From Trypanosoma brucei (taxonomy: Eukaryota), in assembly GCA_000002445.1 (NCBI GenBank), contig CP000068.1, forward strand, positions 288,001 through 352,000: 64,000 nt of DNA, read 5' to 3'. The translations under genes were made by a program, and so were the position numbers. Positions 12,242 to 28,770 of the stretch are shown piece after piece (within the stretch, counting starts at the first letter, position 1; every line of letters begins with the position of its first letter). The notes under the pieces are model-generated. The model had not been told where the DNA came from. It was given only the letters and a program-made list of their open reading frames with translations, and did no database searches.

Positions 12242-12383
12242 TTAAGTCTGTTGTTCATAAAAAACTACGAGGAAAATACGGAACCGGAGGGGCTCGTGAC
12301 CGGTGTTGCTCGCTGAGGGAACCGTGTGTGAGCGAAGTCTAATATAATATCCGATTCGTCCTTTGGGCGTTTCTTTCTGCTTA

Positions 12384-14849
12384 ATGACGAAAGGTGGGAA
12401 AGTAGCTGTGACTAAGGGCTCAGCACAGAGTGATGGTGCTGGTGAGGGAGGGATGAGTAAGGCCAAGTCATCCACTACGTTCGTCGCCACTGGCGGTGGT
12501 TCTTTGCCTGCCTGGGCGCTAAAGGCTGTAAGCACGGTTGTGAGTGCAGTGATTCTTATATACTCTGTCCATCGTGCTTACGATATACGACTTACTTCTG
12601 TCCGTCTTTATGGTGAGCTTATTCACGAGTTCGACCCTTGGTTCAATTACCGTGCAACGCAGTACCTCAGCGACAACGGGTGGCGTGCTTTTTTCCAATG
12701 GTACGACTACATGAGCTGGTACCCGCTTGGCCGACCGGTGGGCACAACCATCTTCCCCGGAATGCAGCTTACCGGTGTAGCCATTCATCGTGTGCTGGAA
12801 ATGCTCGGGCGAGGTATGTCCATCAACAATATCTGTGTGTACATTCCTGCATGGTTCGGTAGTATTGCCACTGTGTTGGCTGCTCTCATTGCGTACGAAT
12901 CATCTAATTCGCTCAGTGTCATGGCGTTTACTGCGTACTTTTTTTCCATCGTACCTGCACACCTGATGCGATCAATGGCTGGTGAATTTGACAATGAGTG
13001 TGTTGCAATGGCGGCGATGCTTCTGACGTTCTACATGTGGGTACGATCGTTACGCAGCTCAAGTTCGTGGCCCATTGGCGCTTTAGCTGGTGTGGCATAC
13101 GGGTACATGGTGTCCACGTGGGGTGGTTATATTTTCGTGCTGAACATGGTAGCCTTCCACGCTTCTGTATGTGTACTGCTTGATTGGGCTCGTGGGACAT
13201 ACAGCGTCAGTTTGCTGAGGGCGTATTCACTGTTTTTTGTCATTGGCACTGCCCTTGCGATTTGCGTACCACCAGTGGAGTGGACGCCCTTCCGGTCGCT
13301 GGAGCAACTGACAGCATTGTTTGTCTTCGTTTTCATGTGGGCACTCCACTACTCGGAATACCTGCGTGAGCGTGCCCGAGCGCCCATTCACTCTTCTAAA
13401 GCACTTCAGATCCGTGCCCGCATTTTCATGGGCACCCTCTCCTTGCTGTTGATTGTAGCTATCTACCTATTTTCGACAGGATACTTCAGGCCGTTTTCTT
13501 CTCGTGTCCGTGCGTTGTTCGTGAAACATACGCGTACCGGAAATCCCCTCGTGGATTCTGTGGCTGAGCACCATCCGGCGTCGAATGATGATTTCTTTGG
13601 TTACCTTCATGTATGTTACAACGGCTGGATAATTGGCTTTTTCTTCATGTCCGTGTCGTGCTTTTTCCATTGTACACCGGGAATGTCGTTCCTGCTGTTG
13701 TACTCTATACTTGCGTACTACTTCTCTCTCAAGATGAGTCGTCTGCTGTTACTTTCTGCACCTGTGGCTTCCATACTCACTGGCTATGTTGTGGGATCTA
13801 TTGTTGACCTCGCAGCAGATTGTTTCGCCGCTTCCGGAACAGAGCACGCCGACAGTAAGGAGCATCAAGGGAAAGCCCGTGGTAAGGGACAGAAGGAACA
13901 AATCACTGTCGAGTGTGGGTGCCATAATCCCTTCTACAAATTATGGTGCAATTCATTTTCCTCCCGCCTGGTAGTTGGTAAGTTTTTTGTCGTTGTTGTC
14001 CTTTCCATCTGTGGACCCACATTTCTTGGGTCTAACTTCCGGATATATTCTGAGCAATTCGCAGACAGCATGTCGAGCCCCCAGATTATAATGAGGGCAA
14101 CTGTCGGTGGACGACGAGTTATCTTGGATGATTACTACGTGTCGTACTTGTGGCTGCGAAACAATACGCCTGAAGATGCCCGTATTCTCTCATGGTGGGA
14201 CTACGGGTATCAAATCACTGGAATTGGCAATCGCACAACCCTTGCGGATGGTAACACATGGAATCACGAGCACATAGCAACTATTGGGAAGATGCTTACA
14301 TCCCCTGTGAAGGAGTCACATGCTCTTATACGCCATCTCGCTGATTATGTGCTGATATGGGCCGGTTATGATGGCAGCGATTTACTTAAATCGCCACACA
14401 TGGCTCGGATAGGCAACAGTGTATATCGCGATATATGCTCAGAGGATGATCCGCTGTGTACGCAGTTCGGGTTTTATAGTGGTGACTTCAGTAAACCTAC
14501 GCCTATGATGCAGCGGTCCCTATTATACAATCTGCACAGGTTTGGTACGGATGGCGGGAAGACACAACTGGATAAGAACATGTTTCAGCTCGCCTACGTG
14601 TCAAAGTATGGTTTGGTGAAGATCTACAAGGTGATGAATGTGAGTGAAGAGAGCAAGGCGTGGGTTGCAGACCCAAAGAACCGTAAGTGCGATGCACCTG
14701 GATCTTGGATATGCACCGGCCAGTACCCGCCAGCGAAGGAGATCCAAGACATGTTAGCGAAGAGGATTGACTACGAACAACTCGAGGATTTCAACCGCCG
14801 CAATCGAAGTGACGCTTATTATCGTGCGTATATGCGTCAGATGGGTTAG
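12384..14849 (+). CDS. STT3B: Oligosaccharyltransferase catalytic subunit STT3, copy 2 (STT3B-like)
   Basis: ATG at 12384 (the track start at 12363 is TTG). 821-aa frame with the WWDYGYQ motif. Full-length C-terminus ...AKRIDYEQLEDFNRRNRSDAYYRAYMRQMG. Confidence 0.9.
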   Translation: MTKGGKVAVTKGSAQSDGAGEGGMSKAKSSTTFVATGGGSLPAWALKAVSTVVSAVILIYSVHRAYDIRLTSVRLYGELIHEFDPWFNYRATQYLSDNGWRAFFQWYDYMSWYPLGRPVGTTIFPGMQLTGVAIHRVLEMLGRGMSINNICVYIPAWFGSIATVLAALIAYESSNSLSVMAFTAYFFSIVPAHLMRSMAGEFDNECVAMAAMLLTFYMWVRSLRSSSSWPIGALAGVAYGYMVSTWGGYIFVLNMVAFHASVCVLLDWARGTYSVSLLRAYSLFFVIGTALAICVPPVEWTPFRSLEQLTALFVFVFMWALHYSEYLRERARAPIHSSKALQIRARIFMGTLSLLLIVAIYLFSTGYFRPFSSRVRALFVKHTRTGNPLVDSVAEHHPASNDDFFGYLHVCYNGWIIGFFFMSVSCFFHCTPGMSFLLLYSILAYYFSLKMSRLLLLSAPVASILTGYVVGSIVDLAADCFAASGTEHADSKEHQGKARGKGQKEQITVECGCHNPFYKLWCNSFSSRLVVGKFFVVVVLSICGPTFLGSNFRIYSEQFADSMSSPQIIMRATVGGRRVILDDYYVSYLWLRNNTPEDARILSWWDYGYQITGIGNRTTLADGNTWNHEHIATIGKMLTSPVKESHALIRHLADYVLIWAGYDGSDLLKSPHMARIGNSVYRDICSEDDPLCTQFGFYSGDFSKPTPMMQRSLLYNLHRFGTDGGKTQLDKNMFQLAYVSKYGLVKIYKVMNVSEESKAWVADPKNRKCDAPGSWICTGQYPPAKEIQDMLAKRIDYEQLEDFNRRNRSDAYYRAYMRQMG

Positions 14850-15683
14850 CCCTGTGAAGATAAATTCGATTTGATGTGACAATGAAATAAGGTATGGGAA
14901 AGGGAGAACAAACTGATAAATGATAAGTGAATGAAGTAAAGTAAGGAAGGCTGCCACTATATGCTTTGAGATTTTCATTTAACTATGTTATGCTGTTGTT
15001 AGGGGTTAGAATCTTTTTTCTTGGTTGCCAATTAGGTATGCATTTCTTTGTATTGGAGAATGTGAGGTAATCTTTTGGGGAGTGACAGCGTTTGGTACAT
15101 TTATCAGGCGATCTATGGTGACATCGCCGCTTGTGCTCCCGTAAGTGCGTTAGGTGGAGGTGTGCAGGTGTATCAACCTTGAAGGTTGTTCTCGCGCTGC
15201 GTTTTCCATATATAGTAGTTAACTGTGATGCTGCGCATGACTAATTTTTCTGTTTAGTCACTACACAGTCAGTTAACCTTTTTCCCTTCTGCCACTGTGT
15301 CGGGCGCAGGTTGGTGTTCCACTGGTAACACTCCGTCATAACCAGGCGTGCACGTACCCTCACTCCCTGAAATGTGTGACACCGTGGTAAGGCCAACAAT
15401 ATGTCTTATTGAAATACTTTCTGGTAATGATGTTGTTGAATATATGTATTGTTTGTCCCCAACCGTGTTTGTGAATGCTTCATCTCGCTTGTATGCACTC
15501 GACTCTCCTCTTTCCACCACTCTCCCTAATTTGCTCAACAGTTAAGTCTGTTGTTCATAAAAAACTACGAGGAAAATACGGAACCGGAGGGGCTCGTGAC
15601 CGGTGTTGCTCGCTGAGGGAACCGTGTGTGAGCGAAGTCTAATATAATATCCGATTCGTCCTTTGGGCGTTTCTTTCTGCTTA

Positions 15684-18149
15684 ATGACGAAAGGTGGGAA
15701 AGTAGCTGTGACTAAGGGCTCAGCACAGAGTGATGGTGCTGGTGAGGGAGGGATGAGTAAGGCCAAGTCATCCACTACGTTCGTCGCCACTGGCGGTGGT
15801 TCTTTGCCTGCCTGGGCGCTAAAGGCTGTAAGCACGGTTGTGAGTGCAGTGATTCTTATATACTCTGTCCATCGTGCTTACGATATACGACTTACTTCTG
15901 TCCGTCTTTATGGTGAGCTTATTCACGAGTTCGACCCTTGGTTCAATTACCGTGCAACGCAGTACCTCAGCGACAACGGGTGGCGTGCTTTTTTCCAATG
16001 GTACGACTACATGAGCTGGTACCCGCTTGGCCGACCGGTGGGCACAACCATCTTCCCCGGAATGCAGCTTACCGGTGTAGCCATTCATCGTGTGCTGGAA
16101 ATGCTCGGGCGAGGTATGTCCATCAACAATATCTGTGTGTACATTCCTGCATGGTTCGGTAGTATTGCCACTGTGTTGGCTGCTCTCATTGCGTACGAGT
16201 CATCTAATTCGCTCAGTGTCATGGCGTTTACTGCGTACTTTTTTTCCATCGTACCTGCACACCTGATGCGATCAATGGCTGGTGAATTTGACAATGAGTG
16301 TGTTGCAATGGCGGCGATGCTTCTGACGTTCTACATGTGGGTACGATCGTTACGCAGCTCAAGTTCGTGGCCCATTGGCGCTTTAGCTGGTGTGGCATAC
16401 GGGTACATGGTGTCCACGTGGGGTGGTTATATTTTCGTGCTGAACATGGTAGCCTTCCACGCTTCTGTATGTGTACTGCTTGATTGGGCTCGTGGGACAT
16501 ACAGCGTCAGTTTGCTGAGGGCGTATTCACTGTTTTTTGTCATTGGCACTGCCCTTGCGATTTGCGTACCACCAGTGGAGTGGACGCCCTTCCGGTCGCT
16601 GGAGCAACTGACAGCATTGTTTGTCTTCGTTTTCATGTGGGCACTCCACTACTCGGAATACCTGCGTGAGCGTGCCCGAGCGCCCATTCACTCTTCTAAA
16701 GCACTTCAGATCCGTGCCCGCATTTTCATGGGCACCCTCTCCTTGCTGTTGATTGTGGCTATCTACCTATTTTCGACAGGATACTTCAGGTCGTTTTCTT
16801 CTCGTGTCCGTGCGTTGTTCGTGAAACATACGCGTACCGGAAATCCCCTCGTGGATTCTGTGGCTGAGCATCGGCCGACGACTGCCGGGGCCTTCCTACG
16901 TCATCTTCATGTGTGTTACAACGGCTGGATAATTGGCTTTTTCTTCATGTCCGTGTCGTGCTTTTTCCATTGTACACCGGGAATGTCGTTCCTGCTGTTG
17001 TACTCTATACTTGCGTACTACTTCTCTCTCAAGATGAGTCGTCTGCTGTTACTTTCTGCACCTGTGGCTTCCATACTCACTGGCTATGTTGTGGGATCTA
17101 TTGTTGACCTCGCAGCAGATTGTTTCGCCGCTTCCGGAACAGAGCACGCCGACAGTAAGGAGCATCAAGGGAAAGCCCGTGGTAAGGGACAAAAGAGACA
17201 AATCACTGTCGAGTGTGGGTGCCATAATCCCTTCTACAAATTATGGTGCAATTCATTTTCCTCCCGCCTGGTAGTTGGTAAGTTTTTTGTCGTTGTTGTC
17301 CTTTCCATCTGTGGACCCACATTTCTTGGGTCTGAGTTTAGGGCTCATTGCGAACGTTTCTCCGTAAGTGTTGCTAATCCGCGTATTATATCGAGTATTA
17401 GGCACTCCGGTAAGTTGGTTCTTGCCGATGATTACTACGTGTCGTACTTGTGGCTGCGAAACAATACGCCTGAAGATGCCCGTATTCTCTCATGGTGGGA
17501 CTACGGGTATCAAATCACTGGAATTGGCAATCGCACAACCCTTGCGGACGGTAACACATGGAATCACGAGCACATAGCAACTATTGGGAAGATGCTTACA
17601 TCCCCTGTGAAGGAGTCACATGCTCTTATACGCCATCTCGCTGATTATGTGCTGATATGGGCCGGTGAGGATCGGGGCGATTTACGTAAGTCACGGCATA
17701 TGGCTCGGATAGGCAACAGTGTATATCGCGATATGTGTTCAGAAGACGATCCGCTGTGTACGCAGTTCGGGTTTTATAGTGGTGACTTCAATAAACCTAC
17801 GCCTATGATGCAGCGGTCCCTATTATACAATCTGCACAGGTTTGGTACGGATGGCGGGAAGACACAACTGGATAAGAACATGTTTCAGCTCGCCTACGTG
17901 TCAAAGTATGGTTTGGTGAAGATCTACAAGGTGATGAATGTGAGTGAAGAGAGCAAGGCGTGGGTTGCAGACCCAAAGAACCGTAAGTGCGATGCACCTG
18001 GATCTTGGATATGCGCCGGCCAGTACCCGCCAGCGAAGGAGATCCAAGACATGTTAGCGAAGAGGATTGACTACGAACAACTCGAGGATTTCAATCGCCG
18101 CAATCGAAGTGACGCTTATTATCGTGCGTATATGCGTCAGATGGGTTAG
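15684..18149 (+). CDS. STT3C: Oligosaccharyltransferase catalytic subunit STT3, copy 3 (STT3C-like). It is a mosaic of A-like and B-like segments.
   Basis: ATG at 15684. The N-terminal 370 aa are identical to B. Segment AEHRPTTAGA matches A, the following YNGWIIGFFFMSVSCFFHC... matches B, and there is a unique stretch SEFRAHCERFSVSVANPRIISSIRHSGKLV. The WWDYGYQ motif is present. Confidence 0.9.
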   Translation: MTKGGKVAVTKGSAQSDGAGEGGMSKAKSSTTFVATGGGSLPAWALKAVSTVVSAVILIYSVHRAYDIRLTSVRLYGELIHEFDPWFNYRATQYLSDNGWRAFFQWYDYMSWYPLGRPVGTTIFPGMQLTGVAIHRVLEMLGRGMSINNICVYIPAWFGSIATVLAALIAYESSNSLSVMAFTAYFFSIVPAHLMRSMAGEFDNECVAMAAMLLTFYMWVRSLRSSSSWPIGALAGVAYGYMVSTWGGYIFVLNMVAFHASVCVLLDWARGTYSVSLLRAYSLFFVIGTALAICVPPVEWTPFRSLEQLTALFVFVFMWALHYSEYLRERARAPIHSSKALQIRARIFMGTLSLLLIVAIYLFSTGYFRSFSSRVRALFVKHTRTGNPLVDSVAEHRPTTAGAFLRHLHVCYNGWIIGFFFMSVSCFFHCTPGMSFLLLYSILAYYFSLKMSRLLLLSAPVASILTGYVVGSIVDLAADCFAASGTEHADSKEHQGKARGKGQKRQITVECGCHNPFYKLWCNSFSSRLVVGKFFVVVVLSICGPTFLGSEFRAHCERFSVSVANPRIISSIRHSGKLVLADDYYVSYLWLRNNTPEDARILSWWDYGYQITGIGNRTTLADGNTWNHEHIATIGKMLTSPVKESHALIRHLADYVLIWAGEDRGDLRKSRHMARIGNSVYRDMCSEDDPLCTQFGFYSGDFNKPTPMMQRSLLYNLHRFGTDGGKTQLDKNMFQLAYVSKYGLVKIYKVMNVSEESKAWVADPKNRKCDAPGSWICAGQYPPAKEIQDMLAKRIDYEQLEDFNRRNRSDAYYRAYMRQMG

Positions 18150-19205
18150 CCCTGTGAAGATAAATTCGATTTGATGTGACAATGAAATAAGGTATGGGAA
18201 AGGGAGAACAAACTGATAAATGACAAGTGAATGAAGTAAAGTAAGGAAGGCTGCCACTATATGCTTTGAGATTTTCATTTAACTATGTTATGCTGTTGTT
18301 AGGGGTTAGAATCTTTTTTCTTGGTTGCCAATTATGTATACATTTATTTTGTGGTTGTTGTTTTTCTTTTTAATATTTTTAGTCTTTTTTCTTCGGTGAC
18401 GTTATTTGTTCGTATTAAATATGTTTGTTGTGCTGGATTCTTGTGGTTTGTGCTACTGTTGCCTGCTACACTTTGTTCATGTTTATTCTTTGTACTTGCA
18501 TTTGCGTACGCATTGATGCATGCATATTTACATGTGTTTGTATATGTTTTTTTTCTAGGTCGTATTTGTTTGTCTGAATGCTTGTGTCTGCTTTGTTTTT
18601 AGTTCTCTCTGTTCTGTTGATTCGAGAGGACTCTGATTTGGCTTCCGCACATCTGATGGTACCTTGTGTTTGTGCTTGTGGAGGTTGCGTATTTACTAGT
18701 GGCATTATCCTTACCCATGTTTCCGTCTTTGAAGTTTACTTACGCTTACTCCTGTGTACCGCTGTATGTGCGGTTGATTTCGAGTCTCTTTTTCAAAAAA
18801 AATTCTGTTATTTTTATTGGTTTCGTTTGGACCATGTGCGAACGAATTGTCATTATCGGCTCCCTTTCCATCTTTTTTTCCGGTTGTTTTGCGCAGTTGT
18901 TAAGCTAATTGTTTTCTTTTAGACTATTTTTTCCCGTGTTGTTAACTTCTGCTATGTTACTTTAACTTCGTGAAGTGTTTCGACTCGAGCGAGAACACCG
19001 TCCGTTTTGACTGCGCATCGAAGTGAATTAAAACATGCATGCAGATGTACTTATGTCCATATCGACACGTATTTAGGGCCTGGTTGTTTAACATGCTCTT
19101 CCCTTTTAGCTATTTATTTTTTCTGCGTATTTCCTCGGTTGCGCCTCAACGCTAGGATCCCTCTAATGTCACGTCTTATCCGCATTTGTGTTCTTTTCTC
19201 GTTAC

Positions 19206-19262
19206 CTGTACACCTACCTTTATTTTCATTTTATCGCATCTTTTCCCCCTTCTCTTTTTTTG
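19206..19262 (+). promoter_or_regulatory. Polypyrimidine tract followed by AG (candidate trans-splice acceptor) for the rhodanese gene
   Basis: A run of about 55 nt of C/T followed by AG dinucleotides, about 65 nt upstream of ATG 19331. Confidence 0.45.
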
Positions 19263-19330
19263 GAGAAGTAGCTTATAGCGGGGAGGTCTCTTTTCCTTCC
19301 TTATTCGATTACACTTCTTCCATTCTCCCG

Positions 19331-20680
19331 ATGCTTCGGTTTCTCCACCGCCCGCTAACAGCACTGGGAACCCAAAACAAGTCGTATCGCCGATTTGTCT
19401 CACAACGCCATGGAAAGGGCCGGCTGTTGGAAAAGGAAGTGGAGGAGACGAGACAAGCACCGGACTCTGTCACTTCCGCTGACCTTCTAAGGGAGGTGAA
19501 AAGGACGCGGGATGAGGTGCAGCTTTTGGCGACATCTGCGGAGGGACTGGCAGCCACGCGTGATGGCGGTGGCCGCGAGAGCGACTGGGCTGAACCTTCT
19601 TTGAAGGATCTCGACAGATCCATACCGCAGGTCGACTGCTCCTTCATTGCCGAGCTTGTTCGCTCCCGCAACCGACAGTTGAAGGATTTCTTACAGAGGA
19701 AAGCGAAATTGGAAGAAAAGGTGGCGTTGTTGACGAGGCGGCAGGCTGGTTCCGTCAAGGAGTCTGTGGGGTACCCCGTCCTAAGCGCATTTCGTGCAAG
19801 AATGAGTGACGCCAACGCGACGGCGAGCTCTACTGAAGGCGACACGGCTGTTGCCGTCGCCCCAGAAGTGCTTGCGGAACTGACGGACGAGGAGCGTGAT
19901 TTGCTGTTGTGCTCGCGTCCGGACTATGGCGATGACTTTGTACTTCTCGACTGCCGCACTGTTAACGAGGTGACATCATGGGGAATTATTGAGGGCGCGA
20001 AGGTGCTTCCTGCGCATGAGATGTTTGAGGCGTTTCACCTCACACCAGAAGAGTTTGAAGTGGAGTTTGGATTTACCAAGCCGCGACCAGAACAGAAGAT
20101 TATATGCTATTGCCAGTATGGGCCGCGGTCCCTGATGGCAGCACAGGTCCTCAGTTGGATGGGGTACACGAAGGTTCTTCACTTTCGTGACGGCTACTAC
20201 GAGTGGGGGAAGCAATACAACTTGTTGCTTCGCCGTTGGATGCTACACGACAAGGAATCTGGTAACGAGGTGAGGCGTCAAGTAGCGTTTCAAGCGGGCC
20301 TTGAACTGCAGCGAGAGATCGCTCCGGAGTTCAACGAACTTCCCATGCAGGAGGCGGCTCGGTACAAGATTGACACGACCCGCAGTCGGGGTACAATACT
20401 TGTTGGTGAGGGATTGCGGGACGAGGCGTACAACCAAGTAAAGGCGCTGGTGGATGGAATGGAGCCGCCGCTACTGCCAGGAGTTCTGGACGCTGAGGAT
20501 CAAGTGACCAACTCAGGCGGCACCGTGGGCAGATGCGAGCATGATCTCCAGCGGTTCCTTCATGAGGCAACCGGAATGGACGCCCACGAAGACGGCGCAC
20601 AACCATTAAGTCTGGCCGAAGCACAGGAGAAGGCCATGCACTCCTTCGCGCAGCGGGACGACAACAATCGTTCACGTTAG
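19331..20680 (+). CDS. Rhodanese-domain (sulfurtransferase/phosphatase-like) protein with a mitochondrial-type presequence
   Basis: The track ORF starts at TTG 19007 and its first ~108 codons are the pyrimidine-rich splice-acceptor region (19206-19262 polyY then AG); the first ATG is 19331 (MLRFLHRPLTALG...). The rhodanese fold is supported by DFVLLDCRTVNEVTSWGIIEGAKVL...KIICYCQYGPRSLMAAQVLSWMGYTKVLHFRDGYYEW, with the active-site Cys loop CYCQYGPRS. Confidence 0.65.
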   Translation: MLRFLHRPLTALGTQNKSYRRFVSQRHGKGRLLEKEVEETRQAPDSVTSADLLREVKRTRDEVQLLATSAEGLAATRDGGGRESDWAEPSLKDLDRSIPQVDCSFIAELVRSRNRQLKDFLQRKAKLEEKVALLTRRQAGSVKESVGYPVLSAFRARMSDANATASSTEGDTAVAVAPEVLAELTDEERDLLLCSRPDYGDDFVLLDCRTVNEVTSWGIIEGAKVLPAHEMFEAFHLTPEEFEVEFGFTKPRPEQKIICYCQYGPRSLMAAQVLSWMGYTKVLHFRDGYYEWGKQYNLLLRRWMLHDKESGNEVRRQVAFQAGLELQREIAPEFNELPMQEAARYKIDTTRSRGTILVGEGLRDEAYNQVKALVDGMEPPLLPGVLDAEDQVTNSGGTVGRCEHDLQRFLHEATGMDAHEDGAQPLSLAEAQEKAMHSFAQRDDNNRSR

Positions 20681-21366: not shown

Positions 21367-24300
21367 ATGGTAGACGGGCGATCTTCTGCATCAATTGTTG
21401 CCGTTGATCCCGAAAGGGCTGCGCGTGAGCGCGACGCAGCAGCGCGTGCCCTTCTTCAAGACAGTCCGCTACACACGACCATGCAATATGCAACGTCTGG
21501 TCTTGAGCTTACCGTTCCCTACGCACTTAAGGTGGTTGCCAGTGCTGACACCTTCGATCGCGCTAAGGAGGTTGCCGATGAGGTGCTACGCTGCGCATGG
21601 CAACTCGCCGACACCGTGTTGAACAGTTTCAACCCGAACAGTGAGGTTTCACTCGTGGGTCGCCTGCCTGTGGGGCAGAAGCACCAAATGTCTGCTCCAC
21701 TCAAGCGTGTGATGGCATGCTGCCAGCGTGTGTATAACTCATCGGCTGGATGTTTTGATCCCTCCACAGCACCCGTCGCAAAGGCGCTGCGTGAGATTGC
21801 ACTGGGGAAGGAGCGGAACAATGCTTGTCTGGAGGCACTTACTCAAGCGTGTACGCTTCCCAACAGTTTTGTGATCGATTTCGAAGCTGGAACTATCAGC
21901 CGTAAGCACGAGCATGCGTCTCTGGACCTAGGTGGGGTTAGCAAAGGTTATATCGTTGATTATGTCATTGATAATATCAATGCTGCTGGATTTCAAAACG
22001 TTTTTTTTGACTGGGGTGGAGACTGCCGTGCGAGTGGTATGAACGCGCGCAATACCCCGTGGGTTGTTGGTATAACTCGCCCTCCGTCCCTTGATATGCT
22101 CCGCAACCCGCCAAAGGAAGCGTCGTATATCAGCGTTATCTCTCTCGACAACGAGGCCCTTGCCACGAGTGGCGATTATGAAAACTTAATATACACCGCT
22201 GATGATAAACCCCTTACCTGCACTTATGACTGGAAGGCGAAGGAACTGATGAAACCTTCTCAGTCCAATATCGCGCAGGTATCGGTTAAATGTTATAGCG
22301 CCATGTACGCTGACGCGCTTGCGACTGCGTGTTTCATAAAGCGGGATCCCGCGAAGGTTCGACAGCTGCTGGACGGTTGGCGTTACGTGCGTGATACAGT
22401 GAGAGATTACAGGGTCTACGTTCGTGAAAATGAGCGAGTAGCGAAGATGTTTGAAATCGCCACAGAGGATGCGGAAATGAGGAAGAGGCGGATCAGCAAC
22501 ACACTTCCCGCTCGTGTCATTGTGGTGGGCGGTGGTCTCGCGGGTTTGTCCGCGGCCATCGAAGCTGCAGGATGCGGTGCTCAGGTTGTGCTTATGGAGA
22601 AGGAGGCGAAGCTCGGAGGCAACAGCGCCAAGGCGACATCTGGTATCAACGGATGGGGCACACGTGCTCAGGCGAAGGCAAGCATTGTGGATGGTGGGAA
22701 ATACTTCGAGCGTGACACATACAAGTCTGGTATCGGGGGTAACACCGATCCTGCCCTTGTGAAGACACTTTCTATGAAAAGTGCTGACGCTATTGGGTGG
22801 CTGACCTCGTTGGGTGTACCGCTGACGGTATTGTCACAGCTTGGGGGTCACAGCCGCAAGCGCACACATCGGGCACCGGATAAGAAAGATGGTACACCTC
22901 TACCTATCGGATTTACAATCATGAAAACCCTCGAGGATCACGTGCGTGGTAACCTTTCTGGCCGCATCACCATAATGGAAAACTGCAGTGTAACGTCGTT
23001 GCTCAGTGAGACGAAGGAACGGCCAGATGGCACTAAACAGATACGAGTTACTGGTGTGGAGTTCACGCAGGCTGGCAGTGGGAAGACGACCATACTTGCA
23101 GATGCTGTCATCCTTGCCACTGGTGGATTTTCTAACGACAAAACTGCAGACTCCCTGCTTCGTGAGCACGCCCCGCACTTGGTCAACTTCCCTACGACGA
23201 ATGGCCCGTGGGCGACAGGTGATGGCGTGAAACTTGCACAGCGACTTGGCGCTCAACTGGTGGATATGGACAAGGTCCAGTTGCATCCGACAGGCCTCAT
23301 CAACCCGAAGGATCCAGCGAACCCTACAAAGTTCCTTGGACCTGAGGCGCTACGTGGATCCGGTGGCGTTTTGTTAAACAAGCAAGGCAAGCGCTTCGTT
23401 AATGAACTTGACCTCCGTTCTGTGGTATCGAAAGCCATCATGGAACAGGGTGCGGAATATCCTGGATCGGGTGGTAGCATGTTCGCCTACTGTGTGTTGA
23501 ATGCTGCGGCGCAGAAGCTCTTTGGTGTCAGCTCACACGAGTTCTACTGGAAGAAGATGGGTCTCTTCGTGAAGGCTGACACCATGAGGGACCTCGCTGC
23601 ACTCATTGGGTGCCCAGTGGAATCTGTGCAGCAGACGCTGGAGGAGTACGAGCGGCTCTCCACATCACAGCGTTCCTGCCCCATCACGCGCAAGAGCGTC
23701 TATCCGTGCGTGCTCGGCACTAAGGGCCCCTACTACGTCGCCTTCGTGACACCTTCGATTCACTACACAATGGGTGGATGTCTCATCTCGCCTTCTGCTG
23801 AAATACAAATGAAGAACACATCATCACGCGCTCCACTGAGTCACAGCAACCCAATCCTCGGGTTATTTGGTGCCGGTGAGGTAACGGGTGGTGTGCACGG
23901 TGGGAACCGGTTGGGCGGCAATTCGCTGCTTGAGTGCGTCGTGTTTGGGAGAATTGCGGGTGATCGGGCCTCGACCATCCTTCAGAGGAAGTCCTCAGCA
24001 CTTTCCTTCAAGGTGTGGACGACCGTGGTGCTGCGTGAAGTACGCGAAGGTGGTGTGTACGGTGCTGGGTCCCGCGTGCTTCGCTTTAATTTACCCGGGG
24101 CGCTGCAACGGTCTGGTCTGAGCCTCGGCCAATTTATCGCAATTCGTGGTGATTGGGACGGTCAGCAGTTGATCGGTTATTACAGTCCCATCACGCTGCC
24201 AGATGATCTTGGCATGATCGATATACTCGCCCGCAGTGATAAGGGGACGCTGAGGGAGTGGATTTCCGCTCTGGAGCCGGGTGACGCTGTGGAGATGAAG

Positions 24301-24795
24301 GCATGCGGTGGTCTGGTGATTGAGCGCCGCTTAAGCGATAAGCACTTTGTGTTCATGGGACACATTATCAACAAGCTTTGTCTAATTGCTGGTGGAACGG
24401 GTGTGGCACCGATGCTGCAAATAATCAAAGCAGCCTTTATGAAACCCTTCATTGACACATTGGAGAGCGTTCATCTCATCTATGCCGCGGAGGACGTAAC
24501 GGAGTTGACGTATCGCGAGGTGCTGGAGGAGCGCCGTCGTGAGTCACGTGGAAAGTTCAAGAAAACGTTTGTCCTCAACCGGCCCCCGCCCCTATGGACT
24601 GATGGTGTTGGCTTCATCGACCGGGGCATCCTCACAAATCATGTGCAGCCGCCATCTGACAACCTGCTGGTGGCCATATGCGGACCACCGGTAATGCAGC
24701 GCATTGTAAAGGCGACCCTGAAGACTTTGGGCTACAACATGAACCTTGTGAGGACTGTGGATGAAACGGAGCCGAGCGGCTCATCCAAAATTTGA
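21367..24795 (+). CDS. FRDg: NADH-dependent fumarate reductase, glycosomal type. It has an N-terminal ApbE-like domain, a central FAD-binding fumarate-reductase domain, a C-terminal cytochrome-b5-reductase-like domain and a C-terminal SKI PTS1.
   Basis: ATG at 21367 (the track start at 21358 is TTG), giving 1142 aa. ApbE-like DLGGVSKGYIVDYV; FAD motif RVIVVGGGLAGLSAAIEAAGCGAQVVLMEKE; soluble fumarate-reductase/flavocytochrome region (HPTGLINPKDP, GGNRLGGNSLLECVVFGR); FNR-like C-terminus (LIAGGTGVAPMLQI). Ends ...GSSKI* (PTS1). Confidence 0.9.
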   Translation: MVDGRSSASIVAVDPERAARERDAAARALLQDSPLHTTMQYATSGLELTVPYALKVVASADTFDRAKEVADEVLRCAWQLADTVLNSFNPNSEVSLVGRLPVGQKHQMSAPLKRVMACCQRVYNSSAGCFDPSTAPVAKALREIALGKERNNACLEALTQACTLPNSFVIDFEAGTISRKHEHASLDLGGVSKGYIVDYVIDNINAAGFQNVFFDWGGDCRASGMNARNTPWVVGITRPPSLDMLRNPPKEASYISVISLDNEALATSGDYENLIYTADDKPLTCTYDWKAKELMKPSQSNIAQVSVKCYSAMYADALATACFIKRDPAKVRQLLDGWRYVRDTVRDYRVYVRENERVAKMFEIATEDAEMRKRRISNTLPARVIVVGGGLAGLSAAIEAAGCGAQVVLMEKEAKLGGNSAKATSGINGWGTRAQAKASIVDGGKYFERDTYKSGIGGNTDPALVKTLSMKSADAIGWLTSLGVPLTVLSQLGGHSRKRTHRAPDKKDGTPLPIGFTIMKTLEDHVRGNLSGRITIMENCSVTSLLSETKERPDGTKQIRVTGVEFTQAGSGKTTILADAVILATGGFSNDKTADSLLREHAPHLVNFPTTNGPWATGDGVKLAQRLGAQLVDMDKVQLHPTGLINPKDPANPTKFLGPEALRGSGGVLLNKQGKRFVNELDLRSVVSKAIMEQGAEYPGSGGSMFAYCVLNAAAQKLFGVSSHEFYWKKMGLFVKADTMRDLAALIGCPVESVQQTLEEYERLSTSQRSCPITRKSVYPCVLGTKGPYYVAFVTPSIHYTMGGCLISPSAEIQMKNTSSRAPLSHSNPILGLFGAGEVTGGVHGGNRLGGNSLLECVVFGRIAGDRASTILQRKSSALSFKVWTTVVLREVREGGVYGAGSRVLRFNLPGALQRSGLSLGQFIAIRGDWDGQQLIGYYSPITLPDDLGMIDILARSDKGTLREWISALEPGDAVEMKACGGLVIERRLSDKHFVFMGHIINKLCLIAGGTGVAPMLQIIKAAFMKPFIDTLESVHLIYAAEDVTELTYREVLEERRRESRGKFKKTFVLNRPPPLWTDGVGFIDRGILTNHVQPPSDNLLVAICGPPVMQRIVKATLKTLGYNMNLVRTVDETEPSGSSKI

Positions 24796-26334
24796 GTTGA
24801 AGCAGTAGAAGGGGCTGGGCGGAGGATAGGGAAAGGGGAAAAGAGTAAGGAAAAGAAGGAATATGTGAGAACAGGCGCCGCCTCTGTTTATTTTTGTATG
24901 TGTGACGCTTATTTGATGACACAGTGCCATTCGGCTGGTAGGAGGGGACAAGGTCCCGGTGCAAAAGTTATGTTAACGAGCAGAGGCGATAAGTGCCATA
25001 ATGGAATGAACGAGGGAGATAGTGCATGGAAGAAAGGGAAGTTGTTAAGAAGCGAAACTGAGAAGGGAAAAGGGAGGGGGGGGGGCGACGGAAGGACGAC
25101 AAATATGTATATATGTATATGTGTATATGTTTGCAGTTTGCGCAGGTGGGCGCACGCGTTCTTCCTTTTCTCCTTATTCCCCACACCTCTCCGCATGAAA
25201 CCATGAGGGCACGCGTGCGGCCGCGGCAAGAGAATGAATACGCAGCTACTGGTACGTGCGAAACCAATGACAGGTGCCACTTCAAGTAAATGTACGGGGG
25301 GGGGGGGTGGGGAGAAACCTTGCACATATCAGTGTGGGTGCAGCGTGTGTGTGTGGTGTGGGATGGATGCCAATCTGGAAAGCATAAAGTCAATTGGAAG
25401 TAAGTGCAATCAAAATGGAGACATGTGCTGGAGCGAATCCGTGAGTTATAAGGAGGACGTGTTAATGGGAGATAGAGGAATGAATAACTGTCGATCTCAG
25501 TTGCCCCCAGTGGCACGCGAGTGAAGGAGGTAAAGAGTGTTGTCTTCTGCTGCACTAAAGAGGTATTTCATATATATATATATCTGTGTGTATACATGGA
25601 CGAACCCGCTCCGCATTCTTCCCTTCTACCCCTTCCCTTGCGGGACTTGATGGTTTTGAGAAATTCTTTTGCTTAATTTTTTTTTGTTCGTTTTGTTCTT
25701 GTGGCTTATTATCTTTTACAAGAAGCGTGCGGTGGAAGGGGGTTGGAGAGGGTGCGGGAAGGGATGGGCAAAAATGAAAAAGAAATTGAACACATTGGAA
25801 TATGTATGGCACATATTTCTGTTGTTTCATGGGCGATCGTACTAAAGGTATAAATGACTGTGCGCAACTATACATATATGTATATTTATTTCTTCATTTG
25901 TTTACATGTACATGCTTCTTTCAATTGTTTTTACCCTCCGGTTCTATCATTAATTACGTCCACGATTTCTTCAATTGTTAGCATCATTAAGTGATGTCCG
26001 AAGCTGCTCTCAAATGAGTTCAGCAAGGGAAGAAAGACCACAGCAGATAAGCGGTATCAAGCAAACCGCTGGGTTAACGAATAACCGTTGAGACATTGGG
26101 CGGAAATATCTACGCCTGAGTGGCTTCGGTATTCAAATGTGTCACACACGTGTATGGGCATCCATGCGTCTACATGGATGTCTTTTGTCGCCGTTAACTT
26201 CAGTATCTATGTGTCACCCTTTCTGGCTGCAATTTTTTGTTTGTTCTTTTCATCTCTTCCTTGACACCGTGGCGCGAGTGTCATTCACCGGTTTGAAAAG
26301 CTTAACCCATCGTAATCGATTGGTGGGTGTCGCA

Positions 26335-28770
26335 ATGTTTTCCGGTCCTGCTGAAGTTTATTACACTAAAAGCATACAAAACAATCATAGACAGTTGCGC
26401 CGCAACGTTGGAGGAGCACAGCCAGGTCGCGGTATATATTACTCCCTGCTTGCTGTTTTGCTCGTAGTTACATTCATCAAGACTGCCAGCGCGATGCTAG
26501 AAAGAGTGCGAGTGGGTATCGATATGATAAGATCAAGGGAGATGGCCATGGTTGAGTCCGAGAATCCTCGTGTCATTGTGGTGGGCGGTGGTCTCGCGGG
26601 TTTGTCCGCGGCCATCGAAGCTGCAGGATGCGGTGCTCAGGTTGTGCTTATGGAGAAGGAGGCGAAGCTCGGAGGCAACAGCGCCAAGGCGACATCTGGT
26701 ATCAACGGATGGGGCACACGTGCTCAGGCGAAGGCAAGCATTGTGGATGGTGGGAAATACTTCGAGCGTGACACATACAAGTCTGGTATCGGGGGTAACA
26801 CCGATCCTGCCCTTGTGAAGACACTTTCTATGAAAAGTGCTGACGCTATTGGGTGGCTGACCTCGTTGGGTGTACCGCTGACGGTATTGTCACAGCTTGG
26901 GGGTCACAGCCGCAAGCGCACACATCGGGCACCGGATAAGAAAGATGGTACACCTCTACCTATCGGATTTACAATCATGAAAACCCTCGAGGATCACGTG
27001 CGTGGTAACCTTTCTGGCCGCATCACCATAATGGAAAACTGCAGTGTAACGTCGTTGCTCAGTGAGACGAAGGAACGGCCAGATGGCACTAAACAGATAC
27101 GAGTTACTGGTGTGGAGTTCACGCAGGCTGGCAGTGGGAAGACGACCATACTTGCAGATGCTGTCATCCTTGCCACTGGTGGATTTTCTAACGACAAAAC
27201 TGCAGACTCCCTGCTTCGTGAGCACGCCCCGCACTTGGTCAACTTCCCTACGACGAATGGCCCGTGGGCGACAGGTGATGGCGTGAAACTTGCACAGCGA
27301 CTTGGCGCTCAACTGGTGGATATGGACAAGGTCCAGTTGCATCCGACAGGCCTCATCAACCCGAAGGATCCAGCGAACCCTACAAAGTTCCTTGGACCTG
27401 AGGCGCTACGTGGATCCGGTGGCGTTTTGTTAAACAAGCAAGGCAAGCGCTTCGTTAATGAACTTGACCTCCGTTCTGTGGTATCGAAAGCCATCATGGA
27501 ACAGGGTGCGGAATATCCTGGATCGGGTGGTAGCATGTTCGCCTACTGTGTGTTGAATGCTGCGGCGCAGAAGCTCTTTGGTGTCAGCTCACACGAGTTC
27601 TACTGGAAGAAGATGGGTCTCTTCGTGAAGGCTGACACCATGAGGGACCTCGCTGCACTCATTGGGTGCCCAGTGGAATCTGTGCAGCAGACGCTGGAGG
27701 AGTACGAGCGGCTCTCCACATCACAGCGTTCCTGCCCCATCACGCGCAAGAGCGTCTATCCGTGCGTGCTCGGCACTAAGGGCCCCTACTACGTCGCCTT
27801 CGTGACACCTTCGATTCACTACACAATGGGTGGATGTCTCATCTCGCCTTCTGCTGAAATACAAATGAAGAACACATCATCACGCGCTCCACTGAGTCAC
27901 AGCAACCCAATCCTCGGGTTATTTGGTGCCGGTGAGGTAACGGGTGGTGTGCACGGTGGGAACCGGTTGGGCGGCAATTCGCTGCTTGAGTGCGTCGTGT
28001 TTGGGAGAATTGCGGGGGCGAGTGCAGCGAATGCTAAATATCACAATGAGACTCACCTTTGGAACAACCGATGGGCTAAGATGGTAGTTGAAAGCGTTCT
28101 TGACGACACGAACGGGTATCAGTGGTTATATTTCAGGCTTCCAAGCACGCTCCAGCGTTCGGGTGTGGGACCACTGCAAGCAGTTGTGTTACGGGAGATG
28201 GAGGGGGAAGGCAGGTTGGATGTCCGTATTCCATTTACGGTGCCTGGGGACGTTGGCGTTGTTGGTATTATGGTTTATTCCAACGACGAGAACAGTTCCA
28301 TGGGGTGGTTAACTGCGCTGCTGCCCGGCGGAATGGTGGAGATGAAAGCGGGGGTACAAGTCGACGCCAACTATGAAAGGATCCTGGCGCTTCCCCGGAA
28401 GGTAATTATCGCCACTCGTGATGGCGTGGCGCCGATGGTCCAAATGATTAGAGCAGCCTTGCATGAAGCGAAGGACGAACCTGCGCTTCAAATAATTTAC
28501 ATCGCAGAACGTGTCGCGACGATTCCCCAGCGTGAAAAGTTGGAGCAGCTTCAAAGGGATCATCCGAACAAGTTTAAGTTCACTTTCGTTGTGCACGATC
28601 CGCCCCCGCTTTGGACCGGAGGTGTCAACATCATGGAGGAAATATCTAAATCTGTGTTCCCTGATGCGAGTCTGGGCGTTTTCCTATTCGCTAGTGCGAC
28701 CGAGTCCGCATCACTGCAAGTTCAGCTGTTGGAGTTGGGGCATAACAAATCAAACATAGTCACTCTTTGA
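26335..28770 (+). CDS. FRDm2: Fumarate reductase paralogue (FRDm2-like). It has no ApbE domain and no PTS1; its central domain shares a block with FRDg that looks identical and its C-terminal domain is divergent.
   Basis: The frame is open from ATG 26137, but ATG 26335 (MFSGPAEVYY...) or a later Met (MLERVRV...) is more plausible, so the start is uncertain. Residues from RVIVVGGGLAGL to VVFGRIAG are identical to FRDg. The C-terminus (VVLREMEGEGRLD... ends ...NIVTL*) is divergent and cyt-b5-reductase-like. Confidence 0.75.
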   Translation: MFSGPAEVYYTKSIQNNHRQLRRNVGGAQPGRGIYYSLLAVLLVVTFIKTASAMLERVRVGIDMIRSREMAMVESENPRVIVVGGGLAGLSAAIEAAGCGAQVVLMEKEAKLGGNSAKATSGINGWGTRAQAKASIVDGGKYFERDTYKSGIGGNTDPALVKTLSMKSADAIGWLTSLGVPLTVLSQLGGHSRKRTHRAPDKKDGTPLPIGFTIMKTLEDHVRGNLSGRITIMENCSVTSLLSETKERPDGTKQIRVTGVEFTQAGSGKTTILADAVILATGGFSNDKTADSLLREHAPHLVNFPTTNGPWATGDGVKLAQRLGAQLVDMDKVQLHPTGLINPKDPANPTKFLGPEALRGSGGVLLNKQGKRFVNELDLRSVVSKAIMEQGAEYPGSGGSMFAYCVLNAAAQKLFGVSSHEFYWKKMGLFVKADTMRDLAALIGCPVESVQQTLEEYERLSTSQRSCPITRKSVYPCVLGTKGPYYVAFVTPSIHYTMGGCLISPSAEIQMKNTSSRAPLSHSNPILGLFGAGEVTGGVHGGNRLGGNSLLECVVFGRIAGASAANAKYHNETHLWNNRWAKMVVESVLDDTNGYQWLYFRLPSTLQRSGVGPLQAVVLREMEGEGRLDVRIPFTVPGDVGVVGIMVYSNDENSSMGWLTALLPGGMVEMKAGVQVDANYERILALPRKVIIATRDGVAPMVQMIRAALHEAKDEPALQIIYIAERVATIPQREKLEQLQRDHPNKFKFTFVVHDPPPLWTGGVNIMEEISKSVFPDASLGVFLFASATESASLQVQLLELGHNKSNIVTL
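26568..28013 (+). repeat. ~1.45-kb block that looks identical to 22512-23957 (FRDg core); a gene-conversion tract between the two FRD genes
   Basis: Offset of exactly 4056 bp. The translated ORFs on both strands read identically (e.g. 22900-23286 vs 26956-27342). Identity is judged from the six-frame translations; a nucleotide alignment was not run. Confidence 0.85.

What the first reader, a model, noticed from the sequence alone, without database searches (positions are those of the whole stretch)
22512..28013. Two fumarate reductase genes share a 1.45-kb block that looks identical while their flanking domains differ (partial gene conversion plus domain loss)
FRDg (21367-24795) has ApbE, FRD and cyt-b5-reductase domains and a PTS1. 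The downstream paralogue (26335-28770) matches it from RVIVVGGG... to ...VVFGRIAG (22512-23957 vs 26568-28013, offset 4056). It has no ApbE domain, a different N-terminus with a hydrophobic segment (IYYSLLAVLLVVTFI), a divergent C-terminal reductase domain and no PTS1. The result is a homogenised catalytic core on differently targeted scaffolds. The missing ApbE (flavin-transferase-like) module raises the question of how the second enzyme acquires covalent or non-covalent flavin, and whether it is functional.
Basis: partly seen in the sequence, partly recalled or inferred. Interest (0 to 1): 0.65.

Follow-up and report, generated by a model that had tools for sequence, protein, structure and literature searches.

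The report
Known identical core in trypanosome FRDg/FRDm2
Two neighbouring fumarate reductase genes of Trypanosoma brucei share a perfectly identical 1,450-base catalytic core because gene conversion keeps overwriting it; this is real, but the identity and its consequences were already published in 2021.

Summary
Window 22511-23960 and 26567-28016 are identical over 1,450 nt with no mismatch (offset 4,056), and identity collapses immediately outside. The window is T. brucei TREU927 chromosome 5. The genes are FRDg (Tb927.5.930) and FRDm2 (Tb927.5.940).

Wargnies et al. [quoted passage not shown] They also report the missing ApbE domain and flavinylation motif, undetected FRDm2 expression, and recombination in this block yielding an inactive FRDg-m2 chimera.

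The gene-conversion reading is supported, and I extended it:
- Synonymous divergence in the core is 0 (T. brucei), 0.02 (T. vivax) and 0.04 (T. cruzi) within species, but about 0.7 between species.
- Tract boundaries are nearly the same in these species and in T. congolense. The FRDm2-specific flanks are orthologous.
- Three strain-specific SNPs are shared by both paralogues.
- Some Leishmania species carry shorter identical tracts.

FRDm2 orthologues have lost the NADH-binding motifs but keep an intact reading frame and a conserved hydrophobic N-terminal segment.

Verdict: real and correctly interpreted, but already known. The genus-wide concerted evolution is a modest addition.

The parts
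21367..24795 (+). FRDg (Tb927.5.930), glycosomal NADH-dependent fumarate reductase, 1142 aa, 123.7 kDa
   Evidence: ORF. The protein is identical to XP_844767 of T. b. brucei TREU927. Pfam finds ApbE at aa 70-332, FAD_binding_2 at 384-854, FAD_binding_6 at 902-982 and NAD_binding_1 at 1006-1115.
21373..21393 (+). Flavinylation target motif DGRSSAS (aa 3-9); Ser9 is the FMN acceptor
   Evidence: A regex for D..[ST][SG]A[ST] hits only FRDg at aa 3, with no hit in FRDm2. The motif and Ser9 are shown experimentally in 10.1101/2020.12.30.424822.
21574..22362 (+). ApbE-like flavin transferase domain of FRDg (aa 70-332)
   Evidence: Pfam PF02424, E = 1.1e-43.
22511..23960 (+). Identical block, copy 1: the FRD catalytic (FAD_binding_2) core of FRDg, from codon position 2 of codon 382 through codon 865
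   Evidence: Exact 1,450-nt run at offset 4056; blastn 100% over 1,450 nt.
23961..24792 (+). FRDg C-terminal cytochrome-b5-reductase-like domain with intact GxGxxP (IAGGTGVAPM) and CGPPVMQR motifs; PTS1 SKI at 24784-24792
   Evidence: Pfam FAD_binding_6 and NAD_binding_1; motif alignment; C-terminus SKI.
24796..26334 (.). Spacer between the two genes, with G runs and (GT)n and (AT)n microsatellites. 26137-26334 is open in frame with FRDm2 but is pyrimidine-rich (about 26219-26270) and followed by AG dinucleotides.
   Evidence: Sequence read; simple-sequence tracts. The repeat period varies from 4068 to 4081 nt in T. b. equiperdum, against 4056 nt here.
26335..28770 (+). FRDm2 (Tb927.5.940): 811 aa from ATG 26335. 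The database annotation starts at ATG 26137 (877 aa, 94.9 kDa).
   Evidence: ORF. The 877-aa product is identical to XP_844768. The 811-aa form is the one annotated in T. b. equiperdum and matches the lengths of the T. congolense (817 aa) and T. melophagium (811 aa) orthologues.
26434..26478 (+). Hydrophobic N-terminal segment IYYSLLAVLLVVTFI, preceded by a basic, acid-poor stretch. Predicted signal-anchor or sorting segment.
   Evidence: The best 17-residue Kyte-Doolittle mean is 2.14 here and 1.9-3.1 in all nine FRDm2 orthologues examined, against 0.97 for FRDg and 1.3-1.5 for FRDm1; N-terminal alignments.
26567..28016 (+). Identical block, copy 2: the FRD catalytic core of FRDm2
28017..28767 (+). 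FRDm2 C-terminal degenerate Cytb5R-like domain. GxGxxP is replaced by IATRDGVAPM, CGPPVMQR by FASATESA, and there is no PTS1 (the protein ends VTL).
   Evidence: 31-33% aa identity to the FRDg C-terminus. Only a weak NAD_binding_1 hit and no FAD_binding_6 hit. Both motifs are lost in all five Trypanosoma FRDm2 sequences.

Best explanation
This is the FRDg/FRDm2 tandem pair on chromosome 5 of Trypanosoma brucei TREU927. The 1,450-nt block encodes the whole fumarate reductase flavoprotein domain. Repeated homologous-recombination gene conversion between the two tandem copies keeps it identical, which is concerted evolution. The tract is bounded at the 5' side by the point where homology ends, because FRDm2 has an unrelated N-terminus in place of ApbE. 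At the 3' side it is bounded by a C-terminal domain too diverged (about 45% nt identity) to support heteroduplex formation. The same block also serves as a crossover substrate. Experiments have shown that it yields a deletion of one ~4.06-kb period, producing an inactive cytosolic FRDg-m2 chimera, and one assembly suggests it may also yield expansions. FRDm2 keeps an FRD core that is identical to the active enzyme and can bind FAD non-covalently. It has lost the electron-input apparatus: the Ser9 FMN-acceptor motif, the ApbE flavin transferase and the NADH-binding motifs of the Cytb5R domain. It is therefore not an NADH-dependent fumarate reductase. Shown: the identity, the conversion signature, the domain and motif losses, and (in the literature) the recombination and the inactivity of the chimera. 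Inferred: the recombination mechanism behind conversion, the reasons for the tract boundaries, and any residual FRDm2 function.
For: The repeat is an exact 1,450 nt with sharp edges. The proteins are identical to the TREU927 entries. In the core, pS within species is 0.000 (T. brucei), 0.021 (T. vivax) and 0.044 (T. cruzi), against 0.67-0.74 between species. The C-terminal flank has pS about 0.75 between the paralogues. DNA tracts are 1450, 1427 and 1469 nt, starting at FRDg nt 1145, 1156 and 1153 and ending at nt 2594, 2582 and 2621 in the three species. T. congolense shows 98-100% identity up to the same 3' edge. A neighbour-joining tree of the core groups FRDg with FRDm2 by species in Trypanosoma. 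FRDm2 C-termini are more similar to each other (38-44%) than to FRDg C-termini (28-37%), so the flanks are orthologous. Block positions 866, 1153 and 1184 differ between 927 and equiperdum/DAL972 but are the same in both paralogues of each strain. Published work covers the 100% identical 1450-bp domains, the Southern blot and PCR evidence for recombination, the inactive chimera, and undetected FRDm2. Flavinylation at Ser9 by the protein's own ApbE domain is also published. Loss of the GxGxxP and CGPP motifs is shown.
Against: Perfect identity, as opposed to near identity, rests on the TREU927 assembly alone. In other strains FRDm2 differs from FRDg at 3-4 nt within a 23-nt patch. This repeat demonstrably breaks other assemblies: DAL972 collapsed it, and the equiperdum scaffold has a gap inside the block. 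Conversion itself has not been observed directly; only crossover products have been detected experimentally. The reasons I give for the tract boundaries are inference.
Confidence: 0.9

Rival explanations
1. The identity reflects strong purifying selection on a catalytic domain, without gene conversion.
For: The core is the most conserved part of the protein between species (77-81% aa identity).
Against: Selection on the protein cannot hold about 360 synonymous sites identical. Orthologous cores differ at about 72% of synonymous sites, yet the paralogues differ at 0-4%. Strain-specific synonymous SNPs at block positions 866 and 1184 are shared by both copies.
Confidence: 0.01
2. A single recent duplication or domain swap in the T. 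brucei lineage created the shared block, and there is no ongoing process.
For: Within one genome, a recent event and ongoing conversion look the same.
Against: The same tract with nearly the same boundaries is near-identical within T. vivax, T. cruzi and T. congolense, while the flanking FRDm2-specific domains are old and orthologous. Within T. brucei, differences between strains have been copied to both paralogues. Leishmania species show independent tracts of different lengths.
Confidence: 0.03
3. The perfect identity in this window is partly an assembly artefact: reads from two nearly identical copies were merged into one consensus in the TREU927 reference.
For: FRDm2 differs from FRDg at block positions 405, 407, 411 and 427 in T. 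b. equiperdum and, at the protein level, in the separately cloned AAX20163/AAX20164 pair. The DAL972 assembly collapsed this repeat and binned the leftover contig. The equiperdum scaffold has a 100-N gap inside the block.
Against: The window has no gaps or ambiguous bases. The restriction map deduced from 927 matched the Southern blots. Even if a few SNPs were lost, at least 99.7% identity is independently confirmed, so the biology is unchanged. TIM at aa 517-519 is the ancestral state in all FRDs, so 927 FRDm2 may simply lack the derived patch.
Confidence: 0.12
4. FRDm2 is a non-functional relic. Its core looks perfect only because FRDg keeps overwriting it, while its own parts decay.
For: The protein was not detected in procyclic or bloodstream forms, and the chimera carrying its C-terminus is inactive. 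The NADH-binding motifs are lost in all species. T. vivax lacks about 66 aa of the domain, and the Leishmaniinae have lost the domain altogether. C-terminal pN is 0.37-0.42, against 0.13-0.17 for FRDg.
Against: The reading frame is intact in every trypanosomatid examined despite deep divergence. The C-terminus keeps its own invariant residues, and pN is lower than pS. A basic-plus-hydrophobic N-terminal segment is conserved from Trypanosoma to Leishmania and Phytomonas.
Confidence: 0.3

Closest known systems
The FRDg/FRDm2 locus of T. brucei as described by Wargnies et al. 2021 (J Biol Chem 296:100548, PMC8065229), which cites Coustou et al. 2005
   Same: It is the same locus. The paper reports the tandem genes on chromosome 5, the 100% identical 1450-bp central domains, the missing ApbE domain and flavinylation motif in FRDm2, the PTS1 on FRDg, and homologous recombination in the block giving the FRDg-m2 chimera.
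   Different: The paper treats the block as a recombination substrate and does not use the terms gene conversion or concerted evolution. It gives a theoretical deletion of 4074 bp, where this window gives 4056 bp.
Phosphoglycerate kinase (PGK A/B/C) tandem array of T. brucei, and tandem-array concerted evolution in general (Jackson 2007, PMC1855330)
   Same: Tandem paralogues encode differently localised isoforms (glycosomal and cytosolic). Partial gene conversion creates chimaeric copies. Copies cluster by species in phylogenies.
   Different: In the FRD pair, conversion is confined to one whole domain between two genes with different domain architectures. The FRD pair is not named in the main text of that survey (supplementary files not checked).
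AQP2/AQP3 tandem pair of T. brucei
   Same: Recombination between tandem paralogues yields a chimeric gene that is selected under pressure. Wargnies et al. themselves cite it as the parallel case.
   Different: AQP2 and AQP3 are about 80% identical with short repeats, not a perfectly identical 1.45-kb block.
Yeast soluble fumarate reductases Osm1/Frd1 (Kim et al. 2018, PMC6242907)
   Same: They have an FRD flavoprotein core with no haem, ApbE or NADH-reductase module, and N-terminal targeting to organelles. Leishmania FRDm2 (N-terminal segment plus FRD core only) has this same minimal architecture.
   Different: Osm1 has a demonstrated second flavin pocket and accepts electrons from free flavins or Ero1. 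Nothing of that kind has been tested for FRDm2. Trypanosoma FRDm2 also retains a degenerate C-terminal domain.

Membership tests
Kinetoplastid NADH-dependent fumarate reductase (ApbE-FRD-Cytb5R type) | Central FRD flavoprotein domain (Pfam FAD_binding_2) | tested here: met
   FRDg E = 1.5e-92 and FRDm2 E = 6.3e-93. The two cores are identical.
Kinetoplastid NADH-dependent fumarate reductase (ApbE-FRD-Cytb5R type) | [quoted passage not shown] | tested here: not met
   Met for FRDg (PF02424, E = 1.1e-43). FRDm2 has no hit at E <= 0.01. FRDm2 therefore fails this feature.
Kinetoplastid NADH-dependent fumarate reductase (ApbE-FRD-Cytb5R type) | [quoted passage not shown] | tested here: not met
   FRDg has DGRSSAS at aa 3-9. 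FRDm2 has no match anywhere.
Kinetoplastid NADH-dependent fumarate reductase (ApbE-FRD-Cytb5R type) | C-terminal Cytb5R domain with NADH-binding GxGxxP and CGPP motifs | tested here: not met
   The motifs are intact in FRDg and FRDm1 of all species. In FRDm2 they are replaced (IATRDGVAPM and FASATESA) in T. brucei and in four other Trypanosoma species. Pfam gives only a weak NAD_binding_1 hit and no FAD_binding_6 hit.
Kinetoplastid NADH-dependent fumarate reductase (ApbE-FRD-Cytb5R type) | NADH:fumarate reductase activity | not testable with these tools
   The literature reports FRDg as active, the FRDg-m2 chimera as inactive, and FRDm2 expression as undetected.
Concerted evolution by gene conversion between tandem paralogues | Paralogues within a species are more similar than orthologues between species | tested here: met
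   99-100% identity within species against 76-81% between species; the tree groups FRDg with FRDm2 by species.
Concerted evolution by gene conversion between tandem paralogues | Homogenisation includes silent sites | tested here: met
   pS is 0.000, 0.021 and 0.044 within species, against 0.67-0.74 between species.
Concerted evolution by gene conversion between tandem paralogues | A discrete tract with old, orthologous flanks | tested here: met
   Tract edges agree within about 40 nt across three species. The C-terminal flank has pS about 0.75 and groups by orthology.
Concerted evolution by gene conversion between tandem paralogues | Lineage-specific substitutions present in both copies | tested here: met
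   Block positions 866, 1153 and 1184 read A/C/G in both 927 copies and G/T/A in all equiperdum and DAL972 copies.
Osm1/Frd1-type soluble fumarate reductase (considered for FRDm2) | FRD core without a dedicated NADH or haem electron-input module | tested here: inconclusive
   Leishmaniinae FRDm2 proteins (495-631 aa) have the FRD domain only. Trypanosoma FRDm2 keeps a degenerate C-terminal domain.
Osm1/Frd1-type soluble fumarate reductase (considered for FRDm2) | Second flavin-binding pocket and activity with reduced free flavins or Ero1/Erv1 | not tested
   This is known for Osm1. The published T. brucei assays used NADH only, and the paper does not mention viologen.
Osm1/Frd1-type soluble fumarate reductase (considered for FRDm2) | N-terminal targeting to the ER or the mitochondrial intermembrane space | tested here: inconclusive
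   A conserved basic-plus-hydrophobic segment is present (KD 1.9-3.1), but no targeting predictor or localisation data were available.

The most novel reading that the evidence does not exclude
FRDm2 is not a dead gene. It would be a membrane-anchored or luminal fumarate reductase resembling yeast Osm1, located in the ER or the mitochondrial intermembrane space. It would take electrons from reduced flavins or from a sulfhydryl oxidase such as Ero1 or Erv1 rather than from NADH. Its catalytic core would be kept fully competent because gene conversion from the strongly selected FRDg continually repairs it, so one paralogue would in effect subsidise the other across the whole genus. It would act in hypoxic insect stages that have not been examined.
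Probability: 0.15. Interest if true: 0.55.

Novelty: already known. Interest (0 to 1): 0.2.

Why it matters
The block matters because it makes the locus recombinogenic. A crossover within it deletes the glycosomal enzyme and is selected when that enzyme becomes a source of reactive oxygen species. All of this is already published.

It also has practical consequences:
- RNA-seq reads and peptides from 483 identical codons cannot be assigned to one gene, so reports of Tb927.5.940 expression or localisation are ambiguous.
- Genome assemblies mis-handle the locus. DAL972 shows two artefactual chimeric genes.

The modest new point is that homogenisation of exactly this domain has been maintained in at least four Trypanosoma species, with nearly the same boundaries, while the flanks diverged freely. 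That makes the pair a clean natural system for measuring conversion tract limits and for asking why an apparently unexpressed paralogue stays intact.

Tried and rejected
1. I tested whether the clustered 3-SNP patch (aa 517/519, A.V) in non-927 FRDm2 was imported from FRDm1 on chromosome 10 by ectopic conversion. This is rejected: FRDm1 and every other FRD carry TIM there, so the patch is a derived change specific to FRDm2.

2. I tested whether the DAL972 proteins CBH10991 (FRDg-m2) and CBH11512 (FRDm2-g) are natural reciprocal recombinants. This is rejected. The second lies on a ~4.2-kb contig between 100-N spacers in a bin at the end of the chromosome record, and it is a circular permutation of the repeat period.

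3. I attempted dN/dS for the FRDm2 C-terminal domain between species. pS is saturated (about 0.75-0.8), so only the uncorrected statement pN < pS is possible.

4. Coustou et al. 2005, the original FRDm1/FRDm2 description, could not be read under the PubMed id I recalled. What it says is taken second-hand.

5. The main text of Jackson's 2007 tandem-array survey does not name the FRD pair (supplementary files not checked).

6. The trans-splice acceptor, and therefore the start codon, of FRDm2 could not be settled from sequence alone. Several polypyrimidine-AG candidates lie upstream of both ATGs.

7. The bacterial, phage and plasmid collections and the RNA tools are irrelevant to this eukaryotic locus and were not used.
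Full report
**1. The observation**

ORF listing and repeat search find two large same-strand ORFs. One runs 21358/21367-24795 (1142 aa from the first ATG). The other runs 26137-28770 (877 aa), with an internal ATG at 26335 giving 811 aa. They share a direct repeat at offset 4056.

A base-by-base comparison gives one exact run, 22511-23960 = 26567-28016, of 1,450 nt with no mismatch. Fixed-offset identity falls to 13-23 of 60 within one 60-nt window on each side. The window has no ambiguous bases.

Pfam confirms the architecture:
- The first protein has ApbE (aa 70-332), FAD_binding_2 (384-854), FAD_binding_6 (902-982) and NAD_binding_1 (1006-1115).
- The second protein has FAD_binding_2 and only a weak NAD_binding_1 hit.
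- The block (FRDg codons 382-865) is essentially the whole FAD_binding_2 domain.

The first protein ends in SKI and starts with MVDGRSSAS. The second ends in VTL. The C-terminal domains are 31-33% identical in protein, and the N-terminal parts are unrelated.

**2. Identity of the locus and prior knowledge**

The two proteins are identical to XP_844767 and XP_844768 of T. brucei brucei TREU927. These are FRDg (Tb927.5.930) and FRDm2 (Tb927.5.940) on chromosome 5.

Wargnies et al. 2021 (PMC8065229) report the following:
- Homologous recombination in this block deletes about 4.1 kb and creates an FRDg-m2 chimera.
- The chimera is cytosolic and inactive.
- FRDm2 has not been detected in procyclic or bloodstream forms.
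- FRDm2 lacks the ApbE domain and the flavinylation motif and is presumed inactive.
- The locus is conserved across trypanosomatids.

A companion preprint shows that Ser9 of DGRSSAS is the FMN acceptor and that the protein's own ApbE domain attaches the flavin. The 877-aa ORF (94.9 kDa) matches the published theoretical mass of 94.8 kDa.

**3. Is it gene conversion?**

The 2021 paper does not use the terms gene conversion or concerted evolution, so I tested this directly by fetching the orthologous loci.

| Species (locus) | Shared FRDg/FRDm2 tract | Identity | Start-end in FRDg nt |
|---|---|---|---|
| T. brucei (window) | 1,450 nt | 100% | 1145-2594 |
| T. vivax (L002) | 1,427 nt | 99.93% | 1156-2582 |
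| T. cruzi (L001) | 1,469 nt | 98.7% | 1153-2621 |

A Nei-Gojobori count gives core pS within species of 0.000, 0.021 and 0.044. Between species, core pS is 0.67-0.74, which is saturated. In the homologous C-terminal flank the paralogues have pS about 0.75 in every species.

FRDm2 C-termini resemble each other (38-44% aa) more than they resemble FRDg C-termini (28-37%). The flanks are therefore old and orthologous, which rules out independent recent duplications.

A tree of the core places FRDg and FRDm2 together by species throughout Trypanosoma. In Leishmaniinae the two form separate clades. T. congolense, for which only a partial FRDg is available, shows 98-100% identity up to the same 3' edge and about 30% beyond it.

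Leishmania is not free of conversion. L. panamensis has a tract of about 270 aa, and L. martiniquensis one of about 120 aa, that are 100% identical inside otherwise diverged cores. Porcisia and Leptomonas seymouri have none.

**4. Strain-level evidence and the artefact question**

I aligned the block copies of 927, T. b. equiperdum and DAL972.
- Positions 866, 1153 and 1184 differ between 927 and the other strains. At each position, both paralogues of a strain carry the same allele. This is the expected signature of recent conversion.
- The only paralogue-specific differences in equiperdum lie in a 23-nt patch (405, 407, 411, 427).
- The same differences appear at protein level in the separately cloned AAX20163/AAX20164 pair.
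- TIM at aa 517-519 is invariant in all FRDs, so the A.V patch is a derived FRDm2 change absent from 927.

Near-identity of at least 99.7% is therefore independently confirmed. The last 3-4 nt of perfect identity rest on the 927 assembly alone. Caution is warranted because this repeat visibly damages other assemblies, as section 5 shows.

**5. Other assemblies**

In DAL972 the canonical locus carries a single FRDg-m2 gene. The reciprocal FRDm2-g gene sits on a ~4.2-kb contig bounded by 100-N spacers, within a bin at the end of the chromosome record. That contig is a circular permutation of the repeat period, so this is a collapse artefact.

In the T. b. equiperdum assembly, one contig ends 228 nt into the FRDm2 block at a 100-N gap. 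The next contig restarts in the STT3 array and then carries FRDg, two FRDm2-g units and FRDm2, which is four blocks with periods of 4068-4081 nt. This may be a real tandem amplification, the reciprocal product of unequal crossover, or it may be an assembly problem. I cannot tell which.

**6. What FRDm2 is**

The core is identical to that of the active enzyme, so it should bind FAD non-covalently as soluble FRDs do (established knowledge of the family, and for Osm1). What is missing is the route by which electrons enter:
- There is no flavinylation motif.
- There is no ApbE domain.
- In all five Trypanosoma FRDm2 sequences the GxGxxP and CGPP NADH-binding motifs are replaced.
- T. vivax also lacks about 66 residues of that region.
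- Leishmaniinae lack the C-terminal domain altogether.

This agrees with the inactive FRDg-m2 chimera.

Against simple decay, three observations stand out:
- The frame is intact in all species examined.
- The C-terminus keeps its own invariant residues, and pN is lower than pS.
- Every FRDm2 orthologue has a basic, acid-poor stretch followed by a hydrophobic segment. The 17-residue Kyte-Doolittle mean is 1.9-3.1, against 0.97 for FRDg and 1.3-1.5 for FRDm1. T. cruzi fits once an upstream in-frame Met is used.

The literature calls this segment a putative mitochondrial targeting signal. Its form also fits a signal anchor or a bipartite sorting signal.

Yeast Osm1 consists of an FRD core only. 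It is found in the ER and in the mitochondrial intermembrane space (PMC5638582, seen only as a search-result abstract). It oxidises free flavins or Ero1. The published T. brucei assays used NADH only. An Osm1-like role is therefore not excluded, but it is speculative.

**7. Start codon**

The annotated start at 26137 gives an N-terminal extension rich in F, L, S and C. This extension is encoded by a pyrimidine-rich stretch (about 26219-26270) followed by AG dinucleotides just upstream of ATG 26335.

The 811-aa form is the one annotated in T. b. equiperdum, and it matches the lengths of the T. congolense and T. melophagium proteins.

**8. Verdict**

The feature is real and the conversion-plus-domain-loss interpretation is right. 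The closest general precedent is the PGK array, together with tandem-array concerted evolution in T. brucei.

The specific finding is already published, so novelty is "already known" and interest is low.
- genus-wide silent-site homogenisation with conserved tract boundaries;
- SNPs shared by both paralogues within a strain;
- variable partial tracts in Leishmania;
- systematic loss of the NADH-binding motifs in FRDm2;
- the conserved hydrophobic N-terminal segment;
- two assembly problems caused by the repeat.

Noticed in passing
window 8470-18149: A tandem array of three STT3 (oligosaccharyltransferase) genes has a 3,300-nt period. Some segments are 99-100% identical between copies and others 96-97%, a mosaic pattern that also suggests partial conversion. 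The order STT3 array, rhodanese-domain gene (19007-20680), FRDg, FRDm2 is syntenic in T. cruzi (L001) and T. vivax (L002).
   Followed up: partly
L003 10001-13348 and L004 9391-13581 (T. b. gambiense DAL972, FN554968.1): The DAL972 reference annotates two chimeric genes: CBH10991 (FRDg N-terminus, core, FRDm2 C-terminus; 1115 aa) at the canonical locus, and CBH11512 (FRDm2 N-terminus, core, FRDg C-terminus; 904 aa). The second lies on a ~4.2-kb contig between 100-N spacers near the end of the record. This is a collapse of the 1,450-nt repeat, not a natural rearrangement.
   Followed up: yes
L005/L006/L007 (T. b. equiperdum GCA_003543875.1, CM010676.1, record 337407-387076): The scaffold has a 100-N gap 228 nt into an FRDm2 block. 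It then repeats the STT3-rhodanese-FRDg region and carries FRDg, two FRDm2-g chimeric units and FRDm2, which is four blocks with periods of 4068, 4081 and 4075 nt. This could be a natural tandem amplification by unequal crossover, which the 2021 paper says has not been reported in T. brucei, or it could be an assembly artefact.
   Followed up: partly
window 22511-28016 (period 4056): The published theoretical deletion size is 4074 bp, but the repeat period in this window is 4056 nt, a difference of 18 nt. The spacer contains G10, G12, (GT)5 and (AT)7 tracts (25076-25583) that could vary in length. The cause of the discrepancy was not established.
   Followed up: partly
P0023/P0070 (L. panamensis), P0029/P0073 (L. 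martiniquensis): In Leishmania the FRDg and FRDm2 cores are generally 68-74% identical. However, L. panamensis has a segment of about 270 aa, and L. martiniquensis one of about 120 aa, that are 100% identical (from about FRDg aa 601). These look like lineage-specific partial conversion tracts. The FRD gene is reported as multicopy in the L. (Viannia) subgenus (PMC4338418).
   Followed up: partly
L002 14469-16715 (T. vivax FRDm2) versus P0007: T. vivax FRDm2 lacks about 66 residues of the C-terminal domain, including the dinucleotide-binding loop region. The gene called in this assembly (748 aa) starts at a different Met from the UniProt Y486 entry (738 aa); an upstream in-frame Met gives the same hydrophobic N-terminus.
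   Followed up: no
window 26137-26334: The annotated 66-aa N-terminal extension of Tb927.5.940 is encoded by a pyrimidine-rich stretch followed by AG dinucleotides. It may be 5' UTR or a splice-acceptor region rather than coding sequence.
   Followed up: partly
window 26567-28016: Tb927.5.940 is listed in flagellar and nuclear proteome comparisons (PMC5519215) and in a T. theileri/T. brucei expression table (PMC5737535). With 483 codons identical to FRDg, such assignments may come from shared peptides or reads rather than from FRDm2 itself.
   Followed up: no
window 60106-60292 and 60445-60631: A 187-nt direct repeat (98% identity, spacing 339 nt) lies inside the ORF 58244-60991.
   Followed up: no
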